From a bacterium (GTDB taxonomy: Bacteria > UBA8248): a DNA stretch of 64,000 nucleotides. Below the pieces are notes generated by a model. It had not been told where the DNA came from and did not search any database. It worked only from the letters and a program-made list of their open reading frames with translations. The stretch is from assembly GCA_965202625.1 (NCBI GenBank), contig CBDBBI010000010.1:1902468-1966467 (forward strand), read 5' to 3'. Every line of letters starts with the position of its first letter. The first letter of the stretch is position 1. The translations under genes were made by a program, and so were the position numbers. Positions 48,282 to 57,369 of this stretch are shown here, piece by piece.

Positions 48282-49826
<1,545 letters not shown>

Positions 49827-49868
49827 GAACTGCCCCCTTGATCCTGCAACTGACTCCTGAAAAGAGTG

Positions 49869-50411
49869 TCAATTCTCCATCAACGCATTTCGCATGTTAC
49901 GAAGCTGATTGCTGATGCTGCCGTCCATGACGACGCCGCCCACGCGGCAGACCAGCCCCCCGATGAGTTTCTCGTCCTTCTCCGCCTCGATGAGCACCTC
50001 GGCACCGGTGATCTTGGAGAGTTTCTCGCGCAACTCCTCAAGGACGGCGGCGTCGAGCGCATGCGCCGCGCTCACGTGCGCGCGAACGCGGCCGCGCTTC
50101 TCGTCCGCAAGCTGCTGGTAGCTGCGCGCCATGGCGGACAACTCGCCGATGCGGTCTTTCTCCGCCACCACGCGCACGAAATTCCGAAGCAGCTCGCTCG
50201 CCCCTGAAGAGGCCATAATCTCATCCAGCATCCTCACCCGCACGCTTCTCGCAAAGCGCGGGTTGAGCAAGACGCGCCGCAACTCCTGGTTTCCCTGAAA
50301 CTCCTCCGCTATCTCCGCCAGCGCCTCTCCAGTCTCGTCCAGGACGCCCCGGTTCTCGGCAATTTTCACCAACGCCCGCGCGTAGCGCCGCGCCGCCTCG
50401 CCGCCTATCAC
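49869..50411 (-). CDS. atpH: F1Fo ATP synthase subunit delta (OSCP)
   Basis: 'YARALVKIAE...' OSCP family. Position between the b and alpha subunits. Confidence 0.85.
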   Translation of the reverse strand: MIGGEAARRYARALVKIAENRGVLDETGEALAEIAEEFQGNQELRRVLLNPRFARSVRVRMLDEIMASSGASELLRNFVRVVAEKDRIGELSAMARSYQQLADEKRGRVRAHVSAAHALDAAVLEELREKLSKITGAEVLIEAEKDEKLIGGLVCRVGGVVMDGSISNQLRNMRNALMEN

Positions 50412-51022
50412 AGGGAGCCTCCGTTTCTATGGCCCAGTTTGTCGAGATAGCGCGCAACGAGCCTTTCCCGATCCGCCTCGTTCAATTCCCTCTTGAGCAT
50501 ATCCTCGGCCAGGCGCAAGGCCAGGCTTGCGGCCTGACTTTGCAACGCAGCGCGCGCTTTCGAGATTTCAAGCCCGATGGTCGTCCTCGTTTGCTCAAGC
50601 AGGCGCCGCGCCTGGCTCTCCCGCTCTTCCTCGAGCCTCGTCCGCATCTCCTCGCGCTCGCGCTCGCCCTGCTCGCGCACCCGGAGGATTTCCGCCTCCA
50701 GACCGGCCACCTTGTCCCTCTGCGCGGCAAGCTGTTCTTCCGCTTCCGCGCGCGACGCCTTGGCCTCCTCAAGCGCCCTGCGAACCCCCTCCCTGCGGTC
50801 TTTCAGGAAGTTCTGAATGGGGCGAAAAGCAACCTTGTAAAGGATGGCCACGACGATGAGCGTGTTGATGACCTTGAAGAGTTCTTCGGTGAAACTAAAT
50901 GGCTTGTGATGCGCGCCCGCCTCCGCAGCCCATGCGGATTCGGGCGAAAACAGCGCGGCCGCCACAAACAGAACGGCCAAAAGACTCCAGTGCCACTTAT
51001 CTGAAAACACAGCCTTCGTCAT
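50408..51022 (-). CDS. atpF: F1Fo ATP synthase subunit b
   Basis: Single N-terminal TM helix plus long charged coiled coil. Operon position. Confidence 0.8.
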   Translation of the reverse strand: MTKAVFSDKWHWSLLAVLFVAAALFSPESAWAAEAGAHHKPFSFTEELFKVINTLIVVAILYKVAFRPIQNFLKDRREGVRRALEEAKASRAEAEEQLAAQRDKVAGLEAEILRVREQGEREREEMRTRLEEERESQARRLLEQTRTTIGLEISKARAALQSQAASLALRLAEDMLKRELNEADRERLVARYLDKLGHRNGGSL

Positions 51023-51025
51023 CCT

Positions 51026-51661
51026 TCATCCAATCGCGCGGCCCGCAAGCCTGCTGGCGATCTCGCTCGCCAGATGGACGGCCCTGCCCTCAAGTTCGGA
51101 GGCCACCCATTTCGTCTGCTCCGCGAGAGACTGGCGCGTTTCCTCAATTTCTCGGTTCGTTCTCTCACGCATTTCGTCGATGCGCTCTCGGCTCGCCTCG
51201 CTCATCTCCTGCTGGAGGGCGATGAGGGCTTCCGTGTTCTCCCCTTCAATCTCCGCCAACGAATCTTCGTATTGGCTGACGTAGCCCGCCGTCTCGCTCC
51301 TGCCGCGCTCGGCGGCGCGCCGATCGCCAGAGATCTCCGCATCGCGCGATTCCATGAGGCCCATCAACGGCCTAACCAGAATTTTGTTGAGGATGAAGAG
51401 CAGAACCAGAAAGTTGGCCCACTGCACCACGATGACGACCGGGTTGAGGACGAGCGCGCCGCTTCCGATGTTGAAGCCGGCGAGCCAGCTGTCCGCCGCT
51501 CCGCCCGCCGCCCAGGATGCGGACGGCGCGATGAGCAACGCGGGAATCATCAACGCCAAACCACGCGCAAGGCGCTTGAAACGAACAAGGTGGAACATCT
51601 CTTCCTTTCCGCCACGTTCCGCATCGGACATGAAGCCACCCCCCATGAGATGCAGGCGCAT
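51026..51661 (-). CDS. F1Fo ATP synthase subunit b' (second b-type subunit)
   Basis: Second b-like protein (TM helix plus E/R-rich coiled coil) directly upstream of atpF. Start codon uncertain. Confidence 0.7.
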   Translation of the reverse strand: MRLHLMGGGFMSDAERGGKEEMFHLVRFKRLARGLALMIPALLIAPSASWAAGGAADSWLAGFNIGSGALVLNPVVIVVQWANFLVLLFILNKILVRPLMGLMESRDAEISGDRRAAERGRSETAGYVSQYEDSLAEIEGENTEALIALQQEMSEASRERIDEMRERTNREIEETRQSLAEQTKWVASELEGRAVHLASEIASRLAGRAIG

Positions 51662-52900: not shown

Positions 52901-53066
52901 CCTCCAGCCGGCCATCCCGGCAGCCTCACCCCCCCCTTGTTTCAGACGAGGCCATCGCCGGGCGCACATTTCGTCTCCTCCCGCGTCTTTTCAGAGGACG
53001 TGATTTTCCTTACCCCGAGAAGATGAAATACAATGCGTGACACGCCACCCCCGAGAGAGGACGGCC

Positions 53067-53843
53067 ATGCCATACGAAAACGTATTATATGAAGTCGATG
53101 GGCCCCTCGCCCTCATCACCATCAACCGCCCCGAACGACACAACGCCGTATCCCTGGCCACGCTGGACGACCTCCACGCCGCCATCGCCGAGGCGGCCGA
53201 GGATGCGGCCGTACGCGCCATCGCCATCACCGGGGCGGGCGAGAAAGCGTTCGCCTCCGGCTCGGACTTGCAGGAGGTCGAACATCGAAACCTCCAAATC
53301 GCGCTCACCCCCCTGGTGCAAGGGGTGGCGGAGCGCCTCGAGAGAACGCCAAAGGCGACCATCGCGGCGATCAACGGCTACTGCATGGGGGGCGGTCTCG
53401 AAGTAGCGCTGGGCTGCGATCTGCGGGTTGCGACGCCCCGTTCAAAATTCGCCACGCCGGAGGGGAGAATCGGCATCATCCCCGGCGGCGGCGCCACGCA
53501 GCGTCTTCCCCGCCTCATCGGGCGCGCCTGGGCGCTAGAGATGCTCTTGATGGGAGAGACCATCGACGCGAAGCGCGCGCTCGATATCGGCCTCATCACC
53601 CGCCTGGTCGAAGCCGGCGAACTCATGCCCACCGTCAAGAGGATGGCCAGGAAGCTGGCGGGCTATGCGCCCTTCGTTCCCCAGTTCATGAAGGCCATGG
53701 TGCACTGCGGCATGGAGGGCGGCATGGCGGCGGGTCTGGCGCTGGAGAAGTTCGCACAGGGCGCGCTTTGCGAAACCGAGGACAAGGCGGAGGGGCTCCG
53801 CGCCTTTCTGGAGAAAAGAAAGCCGCAATGGAAGGGCAGATGA
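53067..53843 (+). CDS. enoyl-CoA hydratase/isomerase (crotonase) family protein
   Basis: 'AINGYCMGGGLEVALGCDLRVA' crotonase oxyanion-hole region. ATG at 53067 verified. Confidence 0.85.
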   Translation: MPYENVLYEVDGPLALITINRPERHNAVSLATLDDLHAAIAEAAEDAAVRAIAITGAGEKAFASGSDLQEVEHRNLQIALTPLVQGVAERLERTPKATIAAINGYCMGGGLEVALGCDLRVATPRSKFATPEGRIGIIPGGGATQRLPRLIGRAWALEMLLMGETIDAKRALDIGLITRLVEAGELMPTVKRMARKLAGYAPFVPQFMKAMVHCGMEGGMAAGLALEKFAQGALCETEDKAEGLRAFLEKRKPQWKGR

Positions 53844-53960
53844 CATGAGAGCCAAAGCCCTGGGCGTCCTGAAGGCCTGCGTCTGCGCCGAGAACAGGGT
53901 GGCGCGCGCCGGAGATGATGCTTTGACGTTGAAAGCAAACAAACACAGAGGAGCCAAAAG

Positions 53961-55439
53961 GTGAACAAACTCTCGGGGGCTTTTTTTCTGTTGCTCGCCC
54001 TGATGGTCGGATGCGCTGCGCCCCATCGGGCGGCGCAACCCCCTCTGGCGGCGCAGGTCTCGTGCAGAGCGTGGAACACTAAGAGGTTCTTCATGCGCGC
54101 CCGCGTCGCGGACGTTTCCCGTTGTCTTGCGGCCGGAGCGGACGTGAACGCACGGACCAAGAACGGAGCGACCCCCTTGCACGTGGCGGCGCATTTCAGC
54201 AAAAAGCCCGGCGTCGTGGCGACGCTCGCGAGAGCCGGAGCAGACGTGAACGCACGGGCTAAGCTCGGAGCGACGCCACTGCACTGGGCAGCGGCGCAAA
54301 GCAAAACGCCCGATGTCGTAGCGGCGCTCGTCAGAGCCGGAGCGAGGGTGAACGCGCGGATCAAGATCGGATTGACGCCCCTCCATGTGGCGGCGCAGTT
54401 CAGCCAAACGCCTGGGGTTGTGGCGGCGCTCGTAAAGGCCGGAGCGAACCCGGCGGTAAAAGACAAAACAGGCAAAACGCCGTGGGATTACGCGAAACAA
54501 AACGTCGCGCTCAAGGGAACGGAAGTCTATCGGCGGCTGAGCGAGGGATGGACGCCCCAGCATAGGGCGGCGGCGAACAGCAACACGCCCCGTGTCGTAG
54601 CGGCGCAGGTCTCGTGCAGAGCATGGAACACTTCGAGGTTCTTCATACGCGCCCGCGTCGTGGACGTTTCCCGTTGTCTTGCGACCGGAGCAGACGTGAA
54701 CGCACGGGACAAGGACGGATTGACACCCCTGCACCGATTGACGCCCCTGCACCGGGCGGGGGCGTACAGCAAGGCGCCCGGTATCGTGGCGGCGCTCGCG
54801 AGGGCCGGAGCAGACCTGAACGCACGGGACAAGAACGGAGCGACGCCACTGCACTGGGCAGCGGCGCGAAGCAAGACGCCCGGTGTCGTGGCAGCGCTCG
54901 TGAAGGCTGGAGCGGACGTGAACGCGCGGAATGAGTACGGATCGACGCCACTGCACTCGGCGGCGAAGCACAGCAAGACGCCCGGTATCGTGGCAGCGCT
55001 CCTGAAAGCCGGCGCGGACGTGAACGCGCGGAATCCTAAGTATGAATGGACGCCCCTGCACTCGGCGGCGCAGTTCAGCCAAACGCCGGGTGTCGTGGCG
55101 GTGCTCGTGAACGCCGGAGCGAACGTGAACGCGCGAAACAAGAAAGGAACGACACCACTGCACGCGGCGGCACTGGACAGTAAGACGCCCGAAGTCGTGG
55201 CGGCGCTCGTAAAGGCCGGAGCGGACGCGGACGCGCGGGATGAGAACGGAGTGACGCCCCTGCACTTCGCGGCGGCGCAAAGCAAGACGCCCGGTGTCGT
55301 GGCAGCTTTGATGGATGCCGGCGCGGATCCGGCGGCAAAAACCCAAGAAGGCAAAACGCCGTGGGATTACGCGAAAGAAAACGACGCGCTCAAGGGAGGG
55401 GACGCCTATTGGCGGCTGAACGAGGGGCGATTCAAATAA
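53961..55439 (+). CDS. ankyrin-repeat lipoprotein (about 12 ANK repeats, internally duplicated)
   Basis: GTG start after RBS 'agaggag'. Lipobox 'LLALMVGCAAP'. Repeated 33-aa units 'GATPLHWAAAQSKTPGVVAALVKAGADVNAR'. The module 'AAQVSCRAWNT.RFF.RARV.DVSRCLA' occurs twice. Confidence 0.85.
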   Translation: MNKLSGAFFLLLALMVGCAAPHRAAQPPLAAQVSCRAWNTKRFFMRARVADVSRCLAAGADVNARTKNGATPLHVAAHFSKKPGVVATLARAGADVNARAKLGATPLHWAAAQSKTPDVVAALVRAGARVNARIKIGLTPLHVAAQFSQTPGVVAALVKAGANPAVKDKTGKTPWDYAKQNVALKGTEVYRRLSEGWTPQHRAAANSNTPRVVAAQVSCRAWNTSRFFIRARVVDVSRCLATGADVNARDKDGLTPLHRLTPLHRAGAYSKAPGIVAALARAGADLNARDKNGATPLHWAAARSKTPGVVAALVKAGADVNARNEYGSTPLHSAAKHSKTPGIVAALLKAGADVNARNPKYEWTPLHSAAQFSQTPGVVAVLVNAGANVNARNKKGTTPLHAAALDSKTPEVVAALVKAGADADARDENGVTPLHFAAAQSKTPGVVAALMDAGADPAAKTQEGKTPWDYAKENDALKGGDAYWRLNEGRFK

Positions 55440-55544
55440 AGCGCGTCTTGCTTGAGAGGAGGGCGGCGCAGACGCCTTTGCGAATGCGATTTCTCGCCCG
55501 TCGGAGACGATGCTTTGACGTTGCAACAAAAGAGGAGTGAAAAG

Positions 55545-56342
55545 ATGAAGAAACTCTCGGGGGTGTTTTTTCTGTTGCTTGCCCTGATGGTCGGCTGTCC
55601 TGCGCCCGCTCTGGCCGCGCAGGTCGCGTGCGGAGAATGGAACACTGTGGCGTTCTTCGAGCGCGCCCGTGGGGCGGACGTTTCCCGCTGTATTGCAGCC
55701 GGCGCGGACCTGAACGCGCGGGAGACCAGGTATGGAGCGACGCCCTTGCATATGGCGGCGGTGCTCAGCAAAACGCCCGGCGTCGTGGCGGCGCTCCTGA
55801 AGGCCGGAGCGGACGTGAACGCACGGGCCCAGGACGGAGCGACGCCACTGCACATGGCGGCCGTGCTAAGCAAAACGCCCGGTGCCGCCGTGGCGGCTCT
55901 CGCAAGAGCCGGCGCGGACCTGAACGCGCGGGAGACCAGGTACGGAGCGACGCCCCTGCACTGGGCGGCGGTGCGCAGCAAAACGCCCGGTGCCGCCGTG
56001 GCGGCGCTCCTGAAGGCCGGAGCGGACGTGAACGCGCGGGATAAGACCGGAGGGACGCCACTGCACATCGCGGCGGTGCGCAGCAAAACGCCCGGTGTCA
56101 TAGCGGTGCTCCTGAAAGCCGGAGCGGACGTGAACGCGCGGGACAAGCGCGGATGGACGCCACTGCACATCGCGGCGGTGCGCAGCAAAACGCCCGGTGC
56201 CGTGGAGACTTTACTGGACGCCGGGGCAAACCCGGCGGCAAAAAACAAAACAGGCCAAACGCCTTGGGATTACGCGCAAGAAAACGACGCGCTCAAGGGA
56301 GGGGACGCCTATTCGCGGCTGAAAGAGGGGCGGTTCAAATAA
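55545..56342 (+). CDS. ankyrin-repeat lipoprotein (about 6 ANK repeats), tandem paralog
   Basis: ATG at 55545 verified. Lipobox 'LLALMVGCPAP'. Same 33-aa repeat units and the same C-terminal 'TPWDYA.ENDALKGGDAY.RL.EGRFK' as the upstream gene. Confidence 0.85.
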   Translation: MKKLSGVFFLLLALMVGCPAPALAAQVACGEWNTVAFFERARGADVSRCIAAGADLNARETRYGATPLHMAAVLSKTPGVVAALLKAGADVNARAQDGATPLHMAAVLSKTPGAAVAALARAGADLNARETRYGATPLHWAAVRSKTPGAAVAALLKAGADVNARDKTGGTPLHIAAVRSKTPGVIAVLLKAGADVNARDKRGWTPLHIAAVRSKTPGAVETLLDAGANPAAKNKTGQTPWDYAQENDALKGGDAYSRLKEGRFK

Positions 56343-56530
56343 AGCGCGCCTTGAAAGGGGAGCACCGCAGACGCCTTTGCGAATACCCCCTGAAAATGAC
56401 CTTTTTTCGGGGCGTAAACGGCCGTGAAAGGGTCTTGAAAAAGCCGCTCAAAGCAGGGCGTCGAGCGTGATGGCGGCGAGAGCGCCCGCGTCCGTCCATC
56501 GCTCCGCGCCCTCCCGGAACGCTCTCCCCC

Positions 56531-57085
56531 TTGCTTCAAGCCATGACCTCTGGCACGATTGCGCTTCGGTGGAAGCGCGACGCCGGAGGGCCGGAAAAGC
56601 CCCCTCCGGTGCCCGTAGAACAGGAAGCGGATATGGCCGAAAACCCCAGCGTCACGTTCATCTGTCCCGCATGCGGAAAAAACGAACTGCCCCTTGACGA
56701 AGCCTGCGCGCCGAACGAATCCTTCTACGTTCAACTCGCGGAGATGGACACTTGCAAGGAAGCGAAAACGGCGCGTTTCGTGTTTGGCGATGCGTTCACG
56801 GCGGGCTTCGGCGGCGTGGTGCGCGACCTGGACGAGGAGGGCAACGAGCGCGAGCGTTGGGCTCCTCCGAGGACGGTGATCGCCTATCACTTCGCGAGAA
56901 ACGACGAGCGCATCGGACACGCCCAACCCATGAACGACTTCTACCCCCAGCCCCTGTATCGCAACCTCTCAAAGGGCGGCGGCGTGGAGAACGTCTACGT
57001 CGCCATGACGTTCCTGCCGCACAACGAAGCCATGACCCCCGATATGCGGGCACAGGGAGAGGCGCTCGCCAAATCCTTGGGCTAG
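56531..57085 (+). CDS. hypothetical protein (possible start at 56633, 'MAENPSV')
   Basis: Codon-usage-consistent ORF with a CPxCG pair near the N-terminus. No recognisable family. Confidence 0.4.
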   Translation: MLQAMTSGTIALRWKRDAGGPEKPPPVPVEQEADMAENPSVTFICPACGKNELPLDEACAPNESFYVQLAEMDTCKEAKTARFVFGDAFTAGFGGVVRDLDEEGNERERWAPPRTVIAYHFARNDERIGHAQPMNDFYPQPLYRNLSKGGGVENVYVAMTFLPHNEAMTPDMRAQGEALAKSLG

Positions 57086-57369
57086 GACGGGCCCCGATCC
57101 AGGAGATAGCCGTAGATCCACGCCAGGAGCCCGAAAAAGACGAAGCCTATCGCGAACCCCCAGACGGCGCCGAGAATCGCTCCCAGAAAGGTGGGGGCGA
57201 CGCCCGGGTAGAAGTTGCCTATCATCGCCAGGATCTCCCCGCCCCAGCCGAACAGCGCGCCCAGCAAGGCATAGAGAAAAAACATGGCGGCGTAGATAAT
57301 TCCTCCGGCCAGACCAAACTTTACGGCGTCGAGTTTCATGGGCATCTCTCCGGCGGCGTGGAAATCCAT
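57082..57369 (-). CDS. small hydrophobic membrane protein (2 TM helices, Gly/aromatic-rich)
   Basis: 95 aa. 'GGIIYAAMFFLYALLGALFGWGGEILAMIGNFYPGV...'. Confidence 0.45.
   Translation of the reverse strand: MDFHAAGEMPMKLDAVKFGLAGGIIYAAMFFLYALLGALFGWGGEILAMIGNFYPGVAPTFLGAILGAVWGFAIGFVFFGLLAWIYGYLLDRGPS

What the first reader, a model, noticed from the sequence alone, without database searches (positions are those of the whole stretch)
53916..56400. Recently duplicated, internally repetitive ankyrin-repeat lipoprotein genes with duplicated promoter
Two adjacent genes each encode a lipoprotein signal (lipobox ending in Cys) followed by 33-aa ankyrin repeats that are near-identical at the nucleotide level (99-nt periodicity). 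Both are preceded by the same 21-nt segment 'ggaga.gatgctttgacgttg', which contains a TTGACG -35-like box, and followed by the same 'cgcagacgcctttgcgaat' element. The first gene itself contains two copies of the N-terminal module minus the signal peptide, plus a 15-nt microduplication (TPLHRLTPLHR). Exported ankyrin-repeat proteins are uncommon in free-living bacteria and are often host-interaction or protein-scaffolding factors. The repeat structure suggests ongoing expansion and contraction by recombination. It is also an assembly-collapse hazard.
Basis: seen in the sequence. Interest (0 to 1): 0.6.

Follow-up and report, generated by a model that had tools for sequence, protein, structure and literature searches.

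The report
Duplicated exported ankyrin genes, sponge-type symbiont
Two neighbouring genes in a Nitrospinota genome, whose closest relatives come from sponge metagenomes, encode exported ankyrin-repeat binding proteins that arose by duplication and in-frame fusion; they are new members of a large, already recognised class of "eukaryote-like" symbiont proteins, so this is an ordinary if tidy example.

Summary
Two same-strand genes (53961-55439, 492 aa; 55545-56342, 265 aa) encode signal-peptide-bearing ankyrin proteins. They share a 21-nt upstream and a 19-nt downstream element. Gene 1 is an in-frame fusion of two complete modules.

Several details were wrong:
- The repeat period is 102 nt (34 aa), not 99 nt.
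- Repeat copies are 61-91% identical, not near-identical; the longest exact repeat is 45 nt.
- The microduplication is 18 nt, not 15, and there is a second one.
- TTGACG is badly placed to be a -35 box.

The proteins belong to a large family (over 1,000 clusters at 50% identity). Family members have a Cys-pair N-cap (CxxWNTxxFF...C), 34-aa repeats and a TPWDY...LKG...RL C-cap, and many carry several modules.

The host is a Nitrospinota. Its nearest relatives (AtpA 94%) include a sponge-metagenome MAG, and they carry an intact glyoxalase gene where this window has the ankyrin pair.

Variation is concentrated on the canonical binding surface. The lipoprotein call is plausible but unproven: LMVGC fits the permissive rule only, most homologues use AxA sites, and a minority have clear lipoboxes.

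Most likely these are Sec-exported binding proteins of the sponge-symbiont eukaryote-like class. Verdict: new member of a known kind, low to moderate interest.

The parts
53845..53896 (+). Remnant (first ~17 codons, MRAKALGVLKACVCAEN) of the glyoxalase/VOC gene that follows the enoyl-CoA hydratase gene in related Nitrospinota. Synteny with those relatives ends here.
   Evidence: blastn synteny ends at window 53890-53892; protein comparison with the L061 glyoxalase; alignment A4; coordinates
53903..53939 (+). 5' flank repeat, copy 1. It contains the 21-nt element at 53911-53931 with TTGACG at 53923-53928. The SD AGAGGAG follows at 53947-53953.
   Evidence: D9, 84% to copy 2; 2 matches, 0 expected; sequence
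53961..55439 (+). Gene 1 (GTG start, 492 aa): a two-module exported ankyrin protein
53961..54053 (+). g1 signal peptide (aa 1-18, ending LMVGC) plus the tether AAPHRAAQPPLAA, which contains an 18-nt microduplication (54021-54055)
54054..54548 (+). Module A: N-cap (QVSCRAWNTKRFF...DVSRC, 54054-54170), three 34-aa ankyrin repeats (54171-54476), and a C-cap lacking its last residues (TPWDYAKQNVALKGTEVYRRLSEG, 54477-54548)
   Evidence: alignment A1
54549..54605 (+). Fusion junction: a degenerate half ankyrin repeat (WTPQHRAAANSNTPRVVAA) occupying the place of a stop codon, spacer and signal peptide. The sequence is unique, at most 86% identical to any other repeat.
54606..55436 (+). Module B: N-cap (54606-54722), 18-nt microduplication LTPLHR x2 (54718-54754), six ankyrin repeats (54741-55355) and a full C-cap (55356-55436)
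   Evidence: (D5, 90% to module A N-cap)
55451..55485 (+). 3' flank repeat, copy 1 (19-nt exact element at 55467-55485; small 6-bp hairpin with no U tract)
   Evidence: D10, 86%
55495..55531 (+). 5' flank repeat, copy 2 (21-nt element at 55503-55523). The SD AGAGGAG follows at about 55530-55536.
   Evidence: D9; sequence
55545..56342 (+). Gene 2 (ATG start, 265 aa): signal peptide to Cys18 (55545-55598), tether PAPALAA (55599-55619), N-cap (55620-55739), five ankyrin repeats (55740-56258; two carry a 1-2 aa insertion) and C-cap (56259-56339)
   Evidence: AlphaFold2 model pLDDT 92 with residues 1-25 at low confidence
56350..56384 (+). 3' flank repeat, copy 2 (19-nt exact element at 56366-56384), followed by the hairpin CCCCUGAAAA...UUUUUCGGGG at 56386-56412
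   Evidence: D10

Best explanation
The locus is a lineage-specific pair of paralogous genes for Sec-exported, capped ankyrin-repeat binding proteins in a Nitrospinota genome. The closest sequenced relatives of that genome include a sponge-metagenome MAG.

Building block. One module consists of an N-cap with an invariant Cys pair (CxxWNTxxFF...DVSRC), three to six 34-residue ankyrin repeats (TPLHxAAxxSKTPGVVAALxKAGADVNARxxxGx), and a C-cap (GKTPWDYAxxNxALKGxxxYxRLxEGRFK).

History (inferred). A cassette made of a 5' leader, the gene and a 3' flank landed just after the enoyl-CoA hydratase gene and truncated a glyoxalase gene. It then became three tandem modules. The first two fused in frame through a half-repeat patch, which removed one stop codon, one spacer and one signal peptide. 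Small 18-nt slippage duplications and exchange between copies followed.

Mechanism (inferred from family knowledge).
- The N-terminal signal sends each protein across the inner membrane.
- Cys18 in LMVGC is probably lipidated, so the protein is tethered to a membrane by a short flexible linker. Alternatively it is cut at the ancestral AxA site and released as a soluble protein.
- The N-cap Cys pair is expected to form a disulfide outside the cytoplasm.
- The concave face of the ankyrin stack carries the variable residues and binds a protein partner. Each module has a different surface, so the three modules offer three specificities.

The most likely partners are host (sponge) proteins, as proposed for eukaryote-like ankyrin proteins of sponge symbionts that reduce phagocytosis.
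For: SHOWN
- Strong Pfam Ank hits.
- A confident ankyrin solenoid model with a low-confidence N-terminal 25 residues. The closest solved folds are DARPins, AnkB and gankyrin.
- Module anatomy and coordinates.
- An invariant Cys pair across homologues (A1; A3).
- The N-cap profile finds 2,537 clusters at E<=1e-3 and 1,017 at E<=1e-10.
- 77 of 141 top representatives carry two or more N-caps, so fused modules are normal for this family.
- Framework codons are under purifying selection (pN 0.10 vs pS 0.29). Binding-surface positions 5, 8 and 9 are hypervariable (pN 0.64).
- The ORFs are intact.
- Host phylum: AtpA is 94% identical to a 'Nitrospinae bacterium' MAG whose record name marks a sponge metagenome study.
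- Four relative loci lack the ankyrin genes and carry an intact glyoxalase gene at this spot.
- Paralogue dS of 0.07-0.38 is below the housekeeping dS of 0.49-0.74 to the nearest relative, so the duplications or conversions post-date that split.
- GC3 matches neighbouring genes.

LITERATURE
- Ankyrin and other eukaryote-like repeats are enriched in sponge MAGs, and their export route is unclear (PMC8163846).
- A signal-peptide-bearing phage ankyrin protein lowers phagocytosis (bioRxiv 10.1101/608950).
Against: - No binding partner, expression or localisation data exist.
- That this genome lives in a sponge is inferred only from its relatives.
- No close orthologue exists anywhere searched: best 52-61% identity and 23% in IMG/VR. 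Copy-number comparison across strains was therefore impossible.
- The lipobox has Met at -3, and most homologues use AxA signals.
- Some dN/dS values of 1 or more between modules rest on few sites and could reflect relaxed constraint rather than diversification.
Confidence: 0.6

Rival explanations
1. Orphan immunity proteins. The two genes would encode periplasmic ankyrin-repeat lipoproteins that neutralise an incoming periplasm-acting toxin, such as a Tle-type phospholipase delivered by a type VI or contact-dependent system. Tandem copies would broaden protection.
For: A documented precedent combines a lipoprotein signal with ankyrin repeats: Tli of Enterobacter cloacae, and ankyrin immunity genes linked to related lipases, including in deltaproteobacteria (bioRxiv 10.1101/2023.03.28.534661). 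In addition, the window has an export signal, tandem diversified paralogues, and a position at a variable genomic spot.
Against: No lipase, T6SS, CdiA, Rhs or any toxin-like gene lies within about 10 kb on either side; the neighbours are metabolic genes. The family's distribution leans to MAGs of the sponge/host-associated type and to large multi-module proteins, which is unusual for immunity proteins.
Confidence: 0.12
2. Same proteins, but not lipoproteins. The signal peptides would be cut by signal peptidase I at the ancestral AxA site (ALA|AQ in g2), giving soluble periplasmic or secreted proteins. The Cys in LMVGC would be an incidental residue of the signal peptide.
For: About 50 of 58 N-cap-bearing sequences (top homologues plus the two window genes) end their signal peptide in AxA directly before the N-cap and have no separate lipobox. 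The closest homologue, P0040, reads LALTPG-APALAAQVSC where g2 reads LALMVGCPAPALAAQVAC. Met at -3 lies outside the strict [LVI] lipobox rule (general knowledge of lipoboxes).
Against: - Both paralogues keep the Cys with a synonymous codon difference (TGC vs TGT), despite dS of about 0.38 across the signal peptide.
- In g1 the AxA site is degraded to PLA/HRA by an 18-nt duplication, as expected if it is no longer used.
- LMVGC fits the permissive PROSITE-type pattern as implemented here.
- Canonical lipobox + tether + N-cap architectures recur in the family: 10 of 72, plus loci L003, L008, L011, L012 and L034.
Confidence: 0.35
3. Assembly artefact or decaying pseudogene. The two-module gene 1 would be a chimeric join or collapse of repeats, or a non-functional relic of a deletion.
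For: The region is repetitive: 39 repeated 31-mers. The fusion removes a stop codon and a signal peptide through an odd half-repeat. Some dN/dS values between modules are near or above 1. No second genome is available to confirm the structure.
Against: - The longest exact repeat is only 45 nt, and the junction piece is unique sequence (at most 86% identical to any repeat), so it is not a join within a shared repeat.
- The 492-codon frame is intact.
- Framework positions are under purifying selection.
- Multi-module proteins are the majority among top family representatives.
Confidence: 0.07
4. Mobile gene cassette. The conserved 5' and 3' elements would be functional ends of a site-specifically inserted ankyrin cassette, integron-like or otherwise, which would explain why the cassette boundary coincides with the synteny breakpoint.
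For: Cassette homology starts at 53903, within about 10 nt of the point where synteny with relatives ends (about 53894-53900). Only 9 nt separate the 3' element of g1 from the 5' element of g2.
Against: - No integrase or transposase lies in the neighbourhood.
- The intergenic RNA/DNA fold is no better than shuffled sequence (z = -0.47), and no attC-like core sites were seen by eye.
- The 21-nt element has no exact match in the JGI metagenome collection and no further copy in the window.
- The flanks are no better conserved (84-86%) than the coding modules (79-89%).
Confidence: 0.05
5. The real gene is the 772-aa ORF on the opposite strand (53535-55853).
For: It is the longest ORF in the region.
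Against: It overlaps the enoyl-CoA hydratase gene and both ankyrin genes. Its translation is a low-complexity Arg/His-rich mirror of the repeats. The + strand frames carry Pfam hits at 1e-72, SD sequences, signal peptides and thousands of homologues.
Confidence: 0.01

Closest known systems
Eukaryote-like ankyrin-repeat proteins (ARPs/ELPs) of sponge symbionts, including the phage-encoded ANKp of 'Ankyphages'
   Same: Bacterial ankyrin-repeat proteins with N-terminal signal peptides and no transmembrane domain, found in sponge-type microbial genomes and often in multiple copies. They are thought to bind host proteins and reduce phagocytosis (PMC8163846; bioRxiv 10.1101/608950). The nearest relatives of the host genome come from a sponge metagenome study.
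   Different: No functional data exist for this pair. No close relative was found in IMG/VR (23% identity), so no phage link is shown. A possible lipoprotein anchor is not a feature highlighted for the described ARPs. Nitrospinota are a minor sponge lineage (7 MAGs in PMC8163846).
Designed and natural ankyrin solenoids (DARPins, ankyrin-B, gankyrin)
   Same: Same fold. Foldseek gives E=1e-14, TM about 0.72-0.84 and 41-42% identity to consensus-designed DARPins. The variable residues sit at the positions randomised in DARPins (x13 and x14, plus the beta-turn), on the basis and general knowledge of the DARPin design.
   Different: The repeat is 34 residues, with an extra residue in the inter-helix turn (SKTPG instead of GHLE). 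The family has its own N-cap with a Cys pair and its own C-cap. No solved structure matches N-cap positions 1-24 by sequence. The proteins are exported rather than cytosolic.
Tli, the ankyrin-repeat lipoprotein immunity protein to the Tle phospholipase (Enterobacter cloacae T6SS-1)
   Same: A lipoprotein signal followed by ankyrin repeats; acts in the periplasm by binding a protein.
   Different: No adjacent tle-like lipase or T6SS genes. The lipobox here is non-canonical. Sequence relatedness beyond generic ankyrin repeats was not tested.
Dot/Icm type IV ankyrin effectors of Legionella and Coxiella (AnkX, AnkY, AnkH and others)
   Same: Bacterial ankyrin repeats used on eukaryotic host targets. 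The NCBIfam models give partial hits.
   Different: All scores are far below the curated cut-offs (for example 157 vs 600 bits) and come from the repeats alone. Those effectors are translocated by a T4SS from the cytoplasm and lack Sec signals.

Membership tests
Ankyrin repeat superfamily (Pfam Ank, Ank_2 to Ank_5) | Significant match to the curated repeat models above the gathering score | tested here: met
   Ank_2 scores 238.5 and 182.4 bits against a cut-off of 27.3; Ank scores 208 and 119 bits against 21.1
Ankyrin repeat superfamily (Pfam Ank, Ank_2 to Ank_5) | Stacked helix-turn-helix plus beta-hairpin solenoid fold | tested here: met
   AlphaFold2 pLDDT 92, seven helix pairs; Foldseek top hits are DARPins, AnkB and gankyrin at TM 0.7-0.85
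Ankyrin repeat superfamily (Pfam Ank, Ank_2 to Ank_5) | Canonical 33-residue period | tested here: not met
   The period is 102 nt / 34 aa, with one extra residue in the inter-helix turn. This is a variant within the superfamily, not an exclusion.
Capped ankyrin module family (this report's working definition) | N-cap CxxWNTxxFF...(D/E)(V/I)xxC with an invariant Cys pair | tested here: met
   All three window modules have it. C4 and C24 are invariant in 36 sequences (A3). The profile finds 1,017 clusters at E<=1e-10.
Capped ankyrin module family (this report's working definition) | C-cap (K)TPWDYxxxNxxLKG(T/G)xxYxRLxExRF | tested here: met
   Present in modules A (truncated), B and C, and in homologues P0041, P0064, P0052, P0033, P0068, P0006, P0022 and P0106
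Bacterial lipoproteins (Sec/SPII signal) | Positively charged n-region and hydrophobic h-region directly followed by Cys | tested here: met
   MNK/MKK, then LSG(A/V)FFLLLALMVG, then C18 in both genes
Bacterial lipoproteins (Sec/SPII signal) | Lipobox [LVI][ASTVI][GAS]C (strict rule) | tested here: not met
   The sequence is M-V-G-C, so position -3 is Met. The strict rule is cited from general knowledge.
Bacterial lipoproteins (Sec/SPII signal) | Permissive PROSITE PS51257-type pattern | tested here: met
   A regex implementation matches both genes at Cys18
Bacterial lipoproteins (Sec/SPII signal) | Call by a trained predictor (SignalP, LipoP) or experimental lipidation | not testable with these tools
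   No such predictor was available. Comparative evidence is mixed: most homologues use AxA sites, while 10 of 72 have a canonical lipobox plus tether.
Sponge-symbiont eukaryote-like ankyrin proteins | Ankyrin domain with an N-terminal export signal in a symbiont genome | tested here: inconclusive
   The domain and signal are present. The sponge origin of this genome is inferred only from relatives: AtpA is 94% identical to the MAG in GCA_026706735.1, sample name ROBB21-1.
Sponge-symbiont eukaryote-like ankyrin proteins | Modulation of host or amoebal phagocytosis | not testable with these tools
   This needs expression and phagocytosis assays, as in the work cited in PMC8163846
Dot/Icm T4SS ankyrin effectors (NCBIfam equivalogs) | Score above the curated equivalog cut-off | tested here: not met
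   The best hit, AnkY, scores 156.8 bits against a cut-off of 600; all others are also below cut-off
Tle/Tli-type immunity (ankyrin lipoprotein) | Immediately adjacent cognate lipase effector or T6SS/CDI genes | tested here: not met
   Neighbours are FAA hydrolase, enoyl-CoA hydratase, CMD, DHH/DHHA1, QRPTase, ferredoxin, TrxR, MmgE/PrpD, the ATP synthase operon and two small unknown ORFs
Integron gene cassette | attC-like structured recombination site at the 3' end, and an integrase nearby | tested here: not met
   The intergenic fold has z = -0.47; no integrase was found among the scanned neighbours; no GTTRRRY/RYYYAAC pair was seen by eye

The most novel reading that the evidence does not exclude
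The Cys insertion that turns an ancestral AxA signal (as in homologue P0040) into LMVGC may be a real switch from a soluble to a lipid-anchored state. It would tether ankyrin modules to the outer membrane or to vesicles. Sponge symbionts that lack dedicated secretion systems could then present eukaryote-like binding proteins to host cells directly. That would give a testable answer to the open question of how such proteins reach the host. The shared cassette ends at a synteny breakpoint could in addition mark a defined unit of gene movement.
Probability: 0.12. Interest if true: 0.6.

Novelty: new member of a known kind. Interest (0 to 1): 0.27.

Why it matters
Exported ankyrin proteins are among the best candidates for how sponge symbionts avoid being eaten by their host, yet how they reach the host is unclear (PMC8163846). 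This locus shows in one place how such genes diversify:
- a cassette inserted at a variable genomic spot;
- tandem duplication;
- in-frame fusion of capped modules;
- slippage microduplications;
- variation concentrated on the binding surface.

It also shows a possible conversion of a cleaved signal peptide into a lipid anchor. The family-level description (Cys-pair N-cap, 34-residue repeat, TPWDY C-cap, more than 1,000 clusters, frequent multi-module chains) could help annotate this class. None of it overturns current understanding.

Tried and rejected
- Exact-sequence look-ups of both proteins found nothing. P0040 was not on record either.
- A family alignment was too diverse for the genome scan. 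The single-protein scan found no orthologue above 52% identity.
- The JGI metagenome scan for the 21-nt element found nothing. The protein scan there gave at most 50% identity. IMG/VR gave one 23% hit, so no phage link and no strain comparison were possible.
- The third protein search, using only the N-terminal 65 residues, returned no candidates.
- The cluster look-up gave no organism names.
- The sigma-70 scan found no promoter. Terminator-like sites were no more frequent than in shuffles, and all lay on the minus strand.
- Folds of the intergenic regions and the 3' element are not better than shuffled sequence (z between -0.5 and -1.3), so neither a terminator nor a structured RNA is claimed.
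- ECF-type and attC-type readings of the 5' element were considered by eye and rejected on spacing and core-site grounds.
- The apparent 69% N-cap identity from the ungapped repeat finder (D5) was a register artefact; codon-aligned identity is 79-82%. The flanks are therefore not better conserved than the coding sequence, and I withdrew an earlier idea that they are under special constraint.
- The NCBIfam 'PA4642 family' hit above its cut-off (60.6 vs 50 bits) covers only 41 repeat residues, so I disregard it.


Full report
**1. What is in the sequence**

The region holds two ORFs on the + strand:
- g1, 53961-55439 (GTG start, 492 aa);
- g2, 55545-56342 (ATG start, 265 aa).

Each has an AGAGGAG Shine-Dalgarno sequence 7 nt upstream of its start codon. 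Both are unambiguous ankyrin proteins: Pfam Ank_2 gives E=7e-72 and 2e-54, far above the gathering score.

A 772-aa ORF on the opposite strand (53535-55853) overlaps the enoyl-CoA hydratase gene and both ankyrin genes. It is a mirror artefact of GC-rich repeats.

**2.

Confirmed:
- The 21-nt upstream element occurs exactly twice in 64 kb, with 0 expected by chance.
- The 19-nt downstream element occurs exactly twice, with 0.04 expected.
- These elements sit inside flank repeats of 37 nt (84% identity) and 35 nt (86% identity), separated by only 9 nt between the genes.
- g1 contains a second copy of the N-terminal module without a signal peptide (54048-54182 vs 54600-54734, 90% identity).

Corrected:
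- Tandem Repeats Finder gives a period of 102 nt, not 99. The repeat is 34 residues long.
- The 14 full repeats are 61-91% identical at nucleotide level.
- The longest exact repeat in 53900-56400 is 45 nt. The repeats are therefore not near-identical, and collapse in assembly is a modest risk.
- The microduplication is 18 nt (LTPLHR twice, 54718-54754).
- A second 18-nt duplication (PHRAAQ/PPLAAQ, 54021-54055) lies just after the candidate lipobox Cys of g1.

**3. Anatomy**

Each protein is built from a capped module. A module has three parts:
- an N-cap, QVSCRAWNTKRFF...DVSRCLAAGADVNAR;
- three to six repeats of TPLHxAAxxSKTPGVVAALxKAGADVNARxxxGx;
- a C-cap, GKTPWDYAxxNxALKGxxxYxRLxEGRFK.

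g2 is one module with five repeats. g1 is two modules in one frame:
- module A has three repeats, and its C-cap is cut after ...RRLSEG;
- a degenerate half repeat, WTPQHRAAANSNTPRVVAA (54549-54605), follows;
- module B has six repeats and a full C-cap.

The junction piece is unique sequence, at most 86% identical to any other repeat. This argues against a chimeric join inside a shared repeat.

AlphaFold2 models g2 as a regular ankyrin stack (mean pLDDT 92). The first 25 residues have low confidence, as expected for a signal peptide and tether. Foldseek's best solved matches are consensus-designed DARPins (41-42% identity), ankyrin-B and gankyrin.

**4. Selection and age**

Across the eleven internal repeats:
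- framework codons show pS 0.29 and pN 0.10;
- positions 5, 8 and 9 of the TPLH register show pN 0.64.

Positions 8 and 9 correspond to residues randomised in DARPins, according to general knowledge of the design. The scaffold is therefore conserved while the binding surface differs between repeats. This fits functional binding proteins.

Divergence between modules is a mosaic:

| Comparison | dS |
|---|---|
| N-caps A vs B | about 0.08 |
| All three C-cap pairs | about 0.09 |
| N-caps A or B vs C | 0.33-0.35 |
| Signal peptides, g1 vs g2 | 0.38 |

The mosaic suggests exchange between copies. Housekeeping genes differ from the nearest relative by dS 0.49-0.74, with dN/dS 0.07-0.10. The duplications, or the last conversions, are therefore younger than that split. 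GC3 of both genes (74-77%) matches neighbouring genes, so there is no compositional sign of recent foreign origin.

**5. Whose genome, and what lies at this locus in relatives**

The ATP synthase alpha subunit in the window is 94% identical to that of MAGs named Nitrospinae/Nitrospinota. One of these sits on a contig of GCA_026706735.1, whose ENA record name (ROBB21-1_SAMN13943208) points to the coral-reef sponge MAG study (PMC8163846).

Four loci from relatives share the gene order atp operon, FAA hydrolase, DUF1643, enoyl-CoA hydratase, glyoxalase. After that they differ from one another. None has an ankyrin gene.

Nucleotide synteny with the window stops at 53890-53892. Window 53845-53896 is the first ~17 codons of that glyoxalase gene, and the rest of the gene is absent from the window. 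The ankyrin cassette homology starts at 53903.

So the ankyrin pair occupies a variable spot and is specific to this lineage. The insertion boundary and the duplication boundary coincide within about 10 nt, and I could not explain this coincidence.

**6. The family**

No protein in the 5.8-billion-sequence collection is more than about 61% identical to g2. GTDB genomes give at most 52%, JGI metagenomes at most 50%, and IMG/VR 23%. The module is nevertheless common:
- 56 to 61 of the top 120 hits carry the N-cap motif, depending on which pattern is used.
- The two N-cap cysteines are invariant in 36 aligned sequences.
- A profile of the N-cap alone finds 2,537 clusters (50% identity) at E<=1e-3 and 1,017 at E<=1e-10.
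- 77 of 141 top representatives have two or more N-caps, and at least nine of the first 120 hits are multi-module. The fused design of g1 is therefore normal for the family.
- Many related loci are tandem arrays of such genes.
- No solved structure matches N-cap positions 1-24 by sequence, and Pfam has no model for either cap.

The genome hits include MAGs from the same sponge project (COS2_bin_10) and many chromosome-level MAGs of unnamed bacteria.

**7. Signal peptide type**

Both genes read n-region, then LSG(A/V)FFLLLALMVG, then Cys18.

For the lipoprotein reading:
- The Cys follows the h-region directly in both paralogues, with a synonymous codon difference (TGC vs TGT).
- The permissive PROSITE-type pattern matches.
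- In g1 the downstream AxA site is spoiled by the 18-nt duplication.
- Canonical lipobox + tether + N-cap architectures recur in the family (P0007, P0060 and P0117; 10 of 72; several loci).

Against it:
- Met at -3 is outside the strict [LVI] rule.
- About 50 of 58 N-cap-bearing sequences end in AxA immediately before the N-cap.
- The closest homologue reads LALTPG-APALAAQVSC where g2 reads LALMVGCPAPALAAQVAC, and g2 keeps a perfect ALA|AQ site.

My reading is that an ancestral cleaved signal gained a Cys. I put the lipoprotein state at roughly 60%.

**8. The flanking elements**

TTGACG lies only 18 nt (g1) or 10 nt (g2) upstream of the SD. A -10 box at the usual spacing would overlap the SD or the start codon. 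The consensus scan finds no sigma-70 promoter. The 3' element forms only a 6-bp hairpin without a U tract, and none of the folds beats shuffled sequence.

The flanks are about as diverged (84-86% identity) as the coding modules (79-89% identity). The simplest reading is that they are parts of the duplicated unit. I do not claim a promoter or terminator function for them.

**9. Function**

Shown:
- the ankyrin fold;
- an export signal;
- a conserved Cys pair;
- a diversified binding surface;
- lineage-specific presence at this locus;
- a host lineage whose closest sequenced relatives include a sponge-metagenome MAG.

Inferred:
- Sec export;
- probable lipidation at Cys18;
- a disulfide in the N-cap;
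- binding of protein partners by the concave face.

Literature on sponge symbionts reports enrichment of ankyrin and other eukaryote-like repeats. It links them to evasion of phagocytosis and notes that the route to the host is unclear, because few lineages have secretion systems (PMC8163846). A phage-encoded, signal-peptide-bearing ankyrin protein lowered phagocytosis and inflammatory responses (bioRxiv 10.1101/608950). I therefore favour host-protein binding.

The main functional rival is an orphan immunity protein of the Tli type, an ankyrin-repeat lipoprotein that neutralises a T6SS phospholipase (bioRxiv 10.1101/2023.03.28.534661). No lipase, T6SS, CDI or other toxin gene lies within about 10 kb; the neighbours are metabolic genes.

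**10. Verdict**

The finding is real, but several details needed correcting. The locus is a new member of a known kind: exported eukaryote-like ankyrin proteins of host-associated bacteria, here in a Nitrospinota. It is a clear example of duplication, module fusion and surface diversification. The candidate switch from a cleaved signal to a lipid anchor is the only point that could bear on an open question. Interest is low to moderate.

Noticed in passing
window 53845-53896: A truncated start (about 17 codons) of a glyoxalase/VOC gene that is intact in four related Nitrospinota loci. Synteny with those relatives ends here, right where the ankyrin cassette begins.
   Followed up: yes
window 52960-53001, compared with L061 6383-6910: Relatives carry a DUF1643 gene on the opposite strand between the FAA hydrolase and enoyl-CoA hydratase genes. 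About 430 nt of it are missing in the window.
   Followed up: partly
window 53535-55853 (- strand): A 772-aa antisense ORF spans the end of the hydratase gene, all of g1 and part of g2. It is an Arg/His-rich mirror of the repeats and almost certainly not a gene, but it could mislead gene callers.
   Followed up: partly
window 53879-53890 and 55464-55475: A 12-nt exact inverted match: GCGTCTGCGCCG inside the glyoxalase remnant and CGGCGCAGACGC in the 3' element of g1. About one such match is expected by chance in 3 kb.
   Followed up: partly
window 56633-57085 (+) and 57082-57369 (-): Two small ORFs directly downstream of g2 have no Pfam match: a 150-aa protein with a CPACG...C motif and a 95-aa hydrophobic protein. 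Any link to the ankyrin genes is unknown.
   Followed up: no
L062 1-4421, L063 1-4420; L061 3915-4754: The region beyond the glyoxalase gene also differs among the relatives: a protein of about 1,500 aa with faint sCache hits in one sample, and an FGE-sulfatase gene in another. The spot is variable across the lineage.
   Followed up: no
window 48282-51661 (- strand): The ATP synthase operon has two b-type subunits (b and b') followed by delta and alpha, the same order as in the Nitrospinota relatives.
   Followed up: no
window 55842-56054 (repeats C2 and C3 of g2): Two repeats carry an extra Ala in helix 2 (TPGAAVAAL) and a longer beta-turn (ETRYGA). TRF also reports a 210-nt period here, which suggests a two-repeat unit was duplicated inside g2.
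   Followed up: partly
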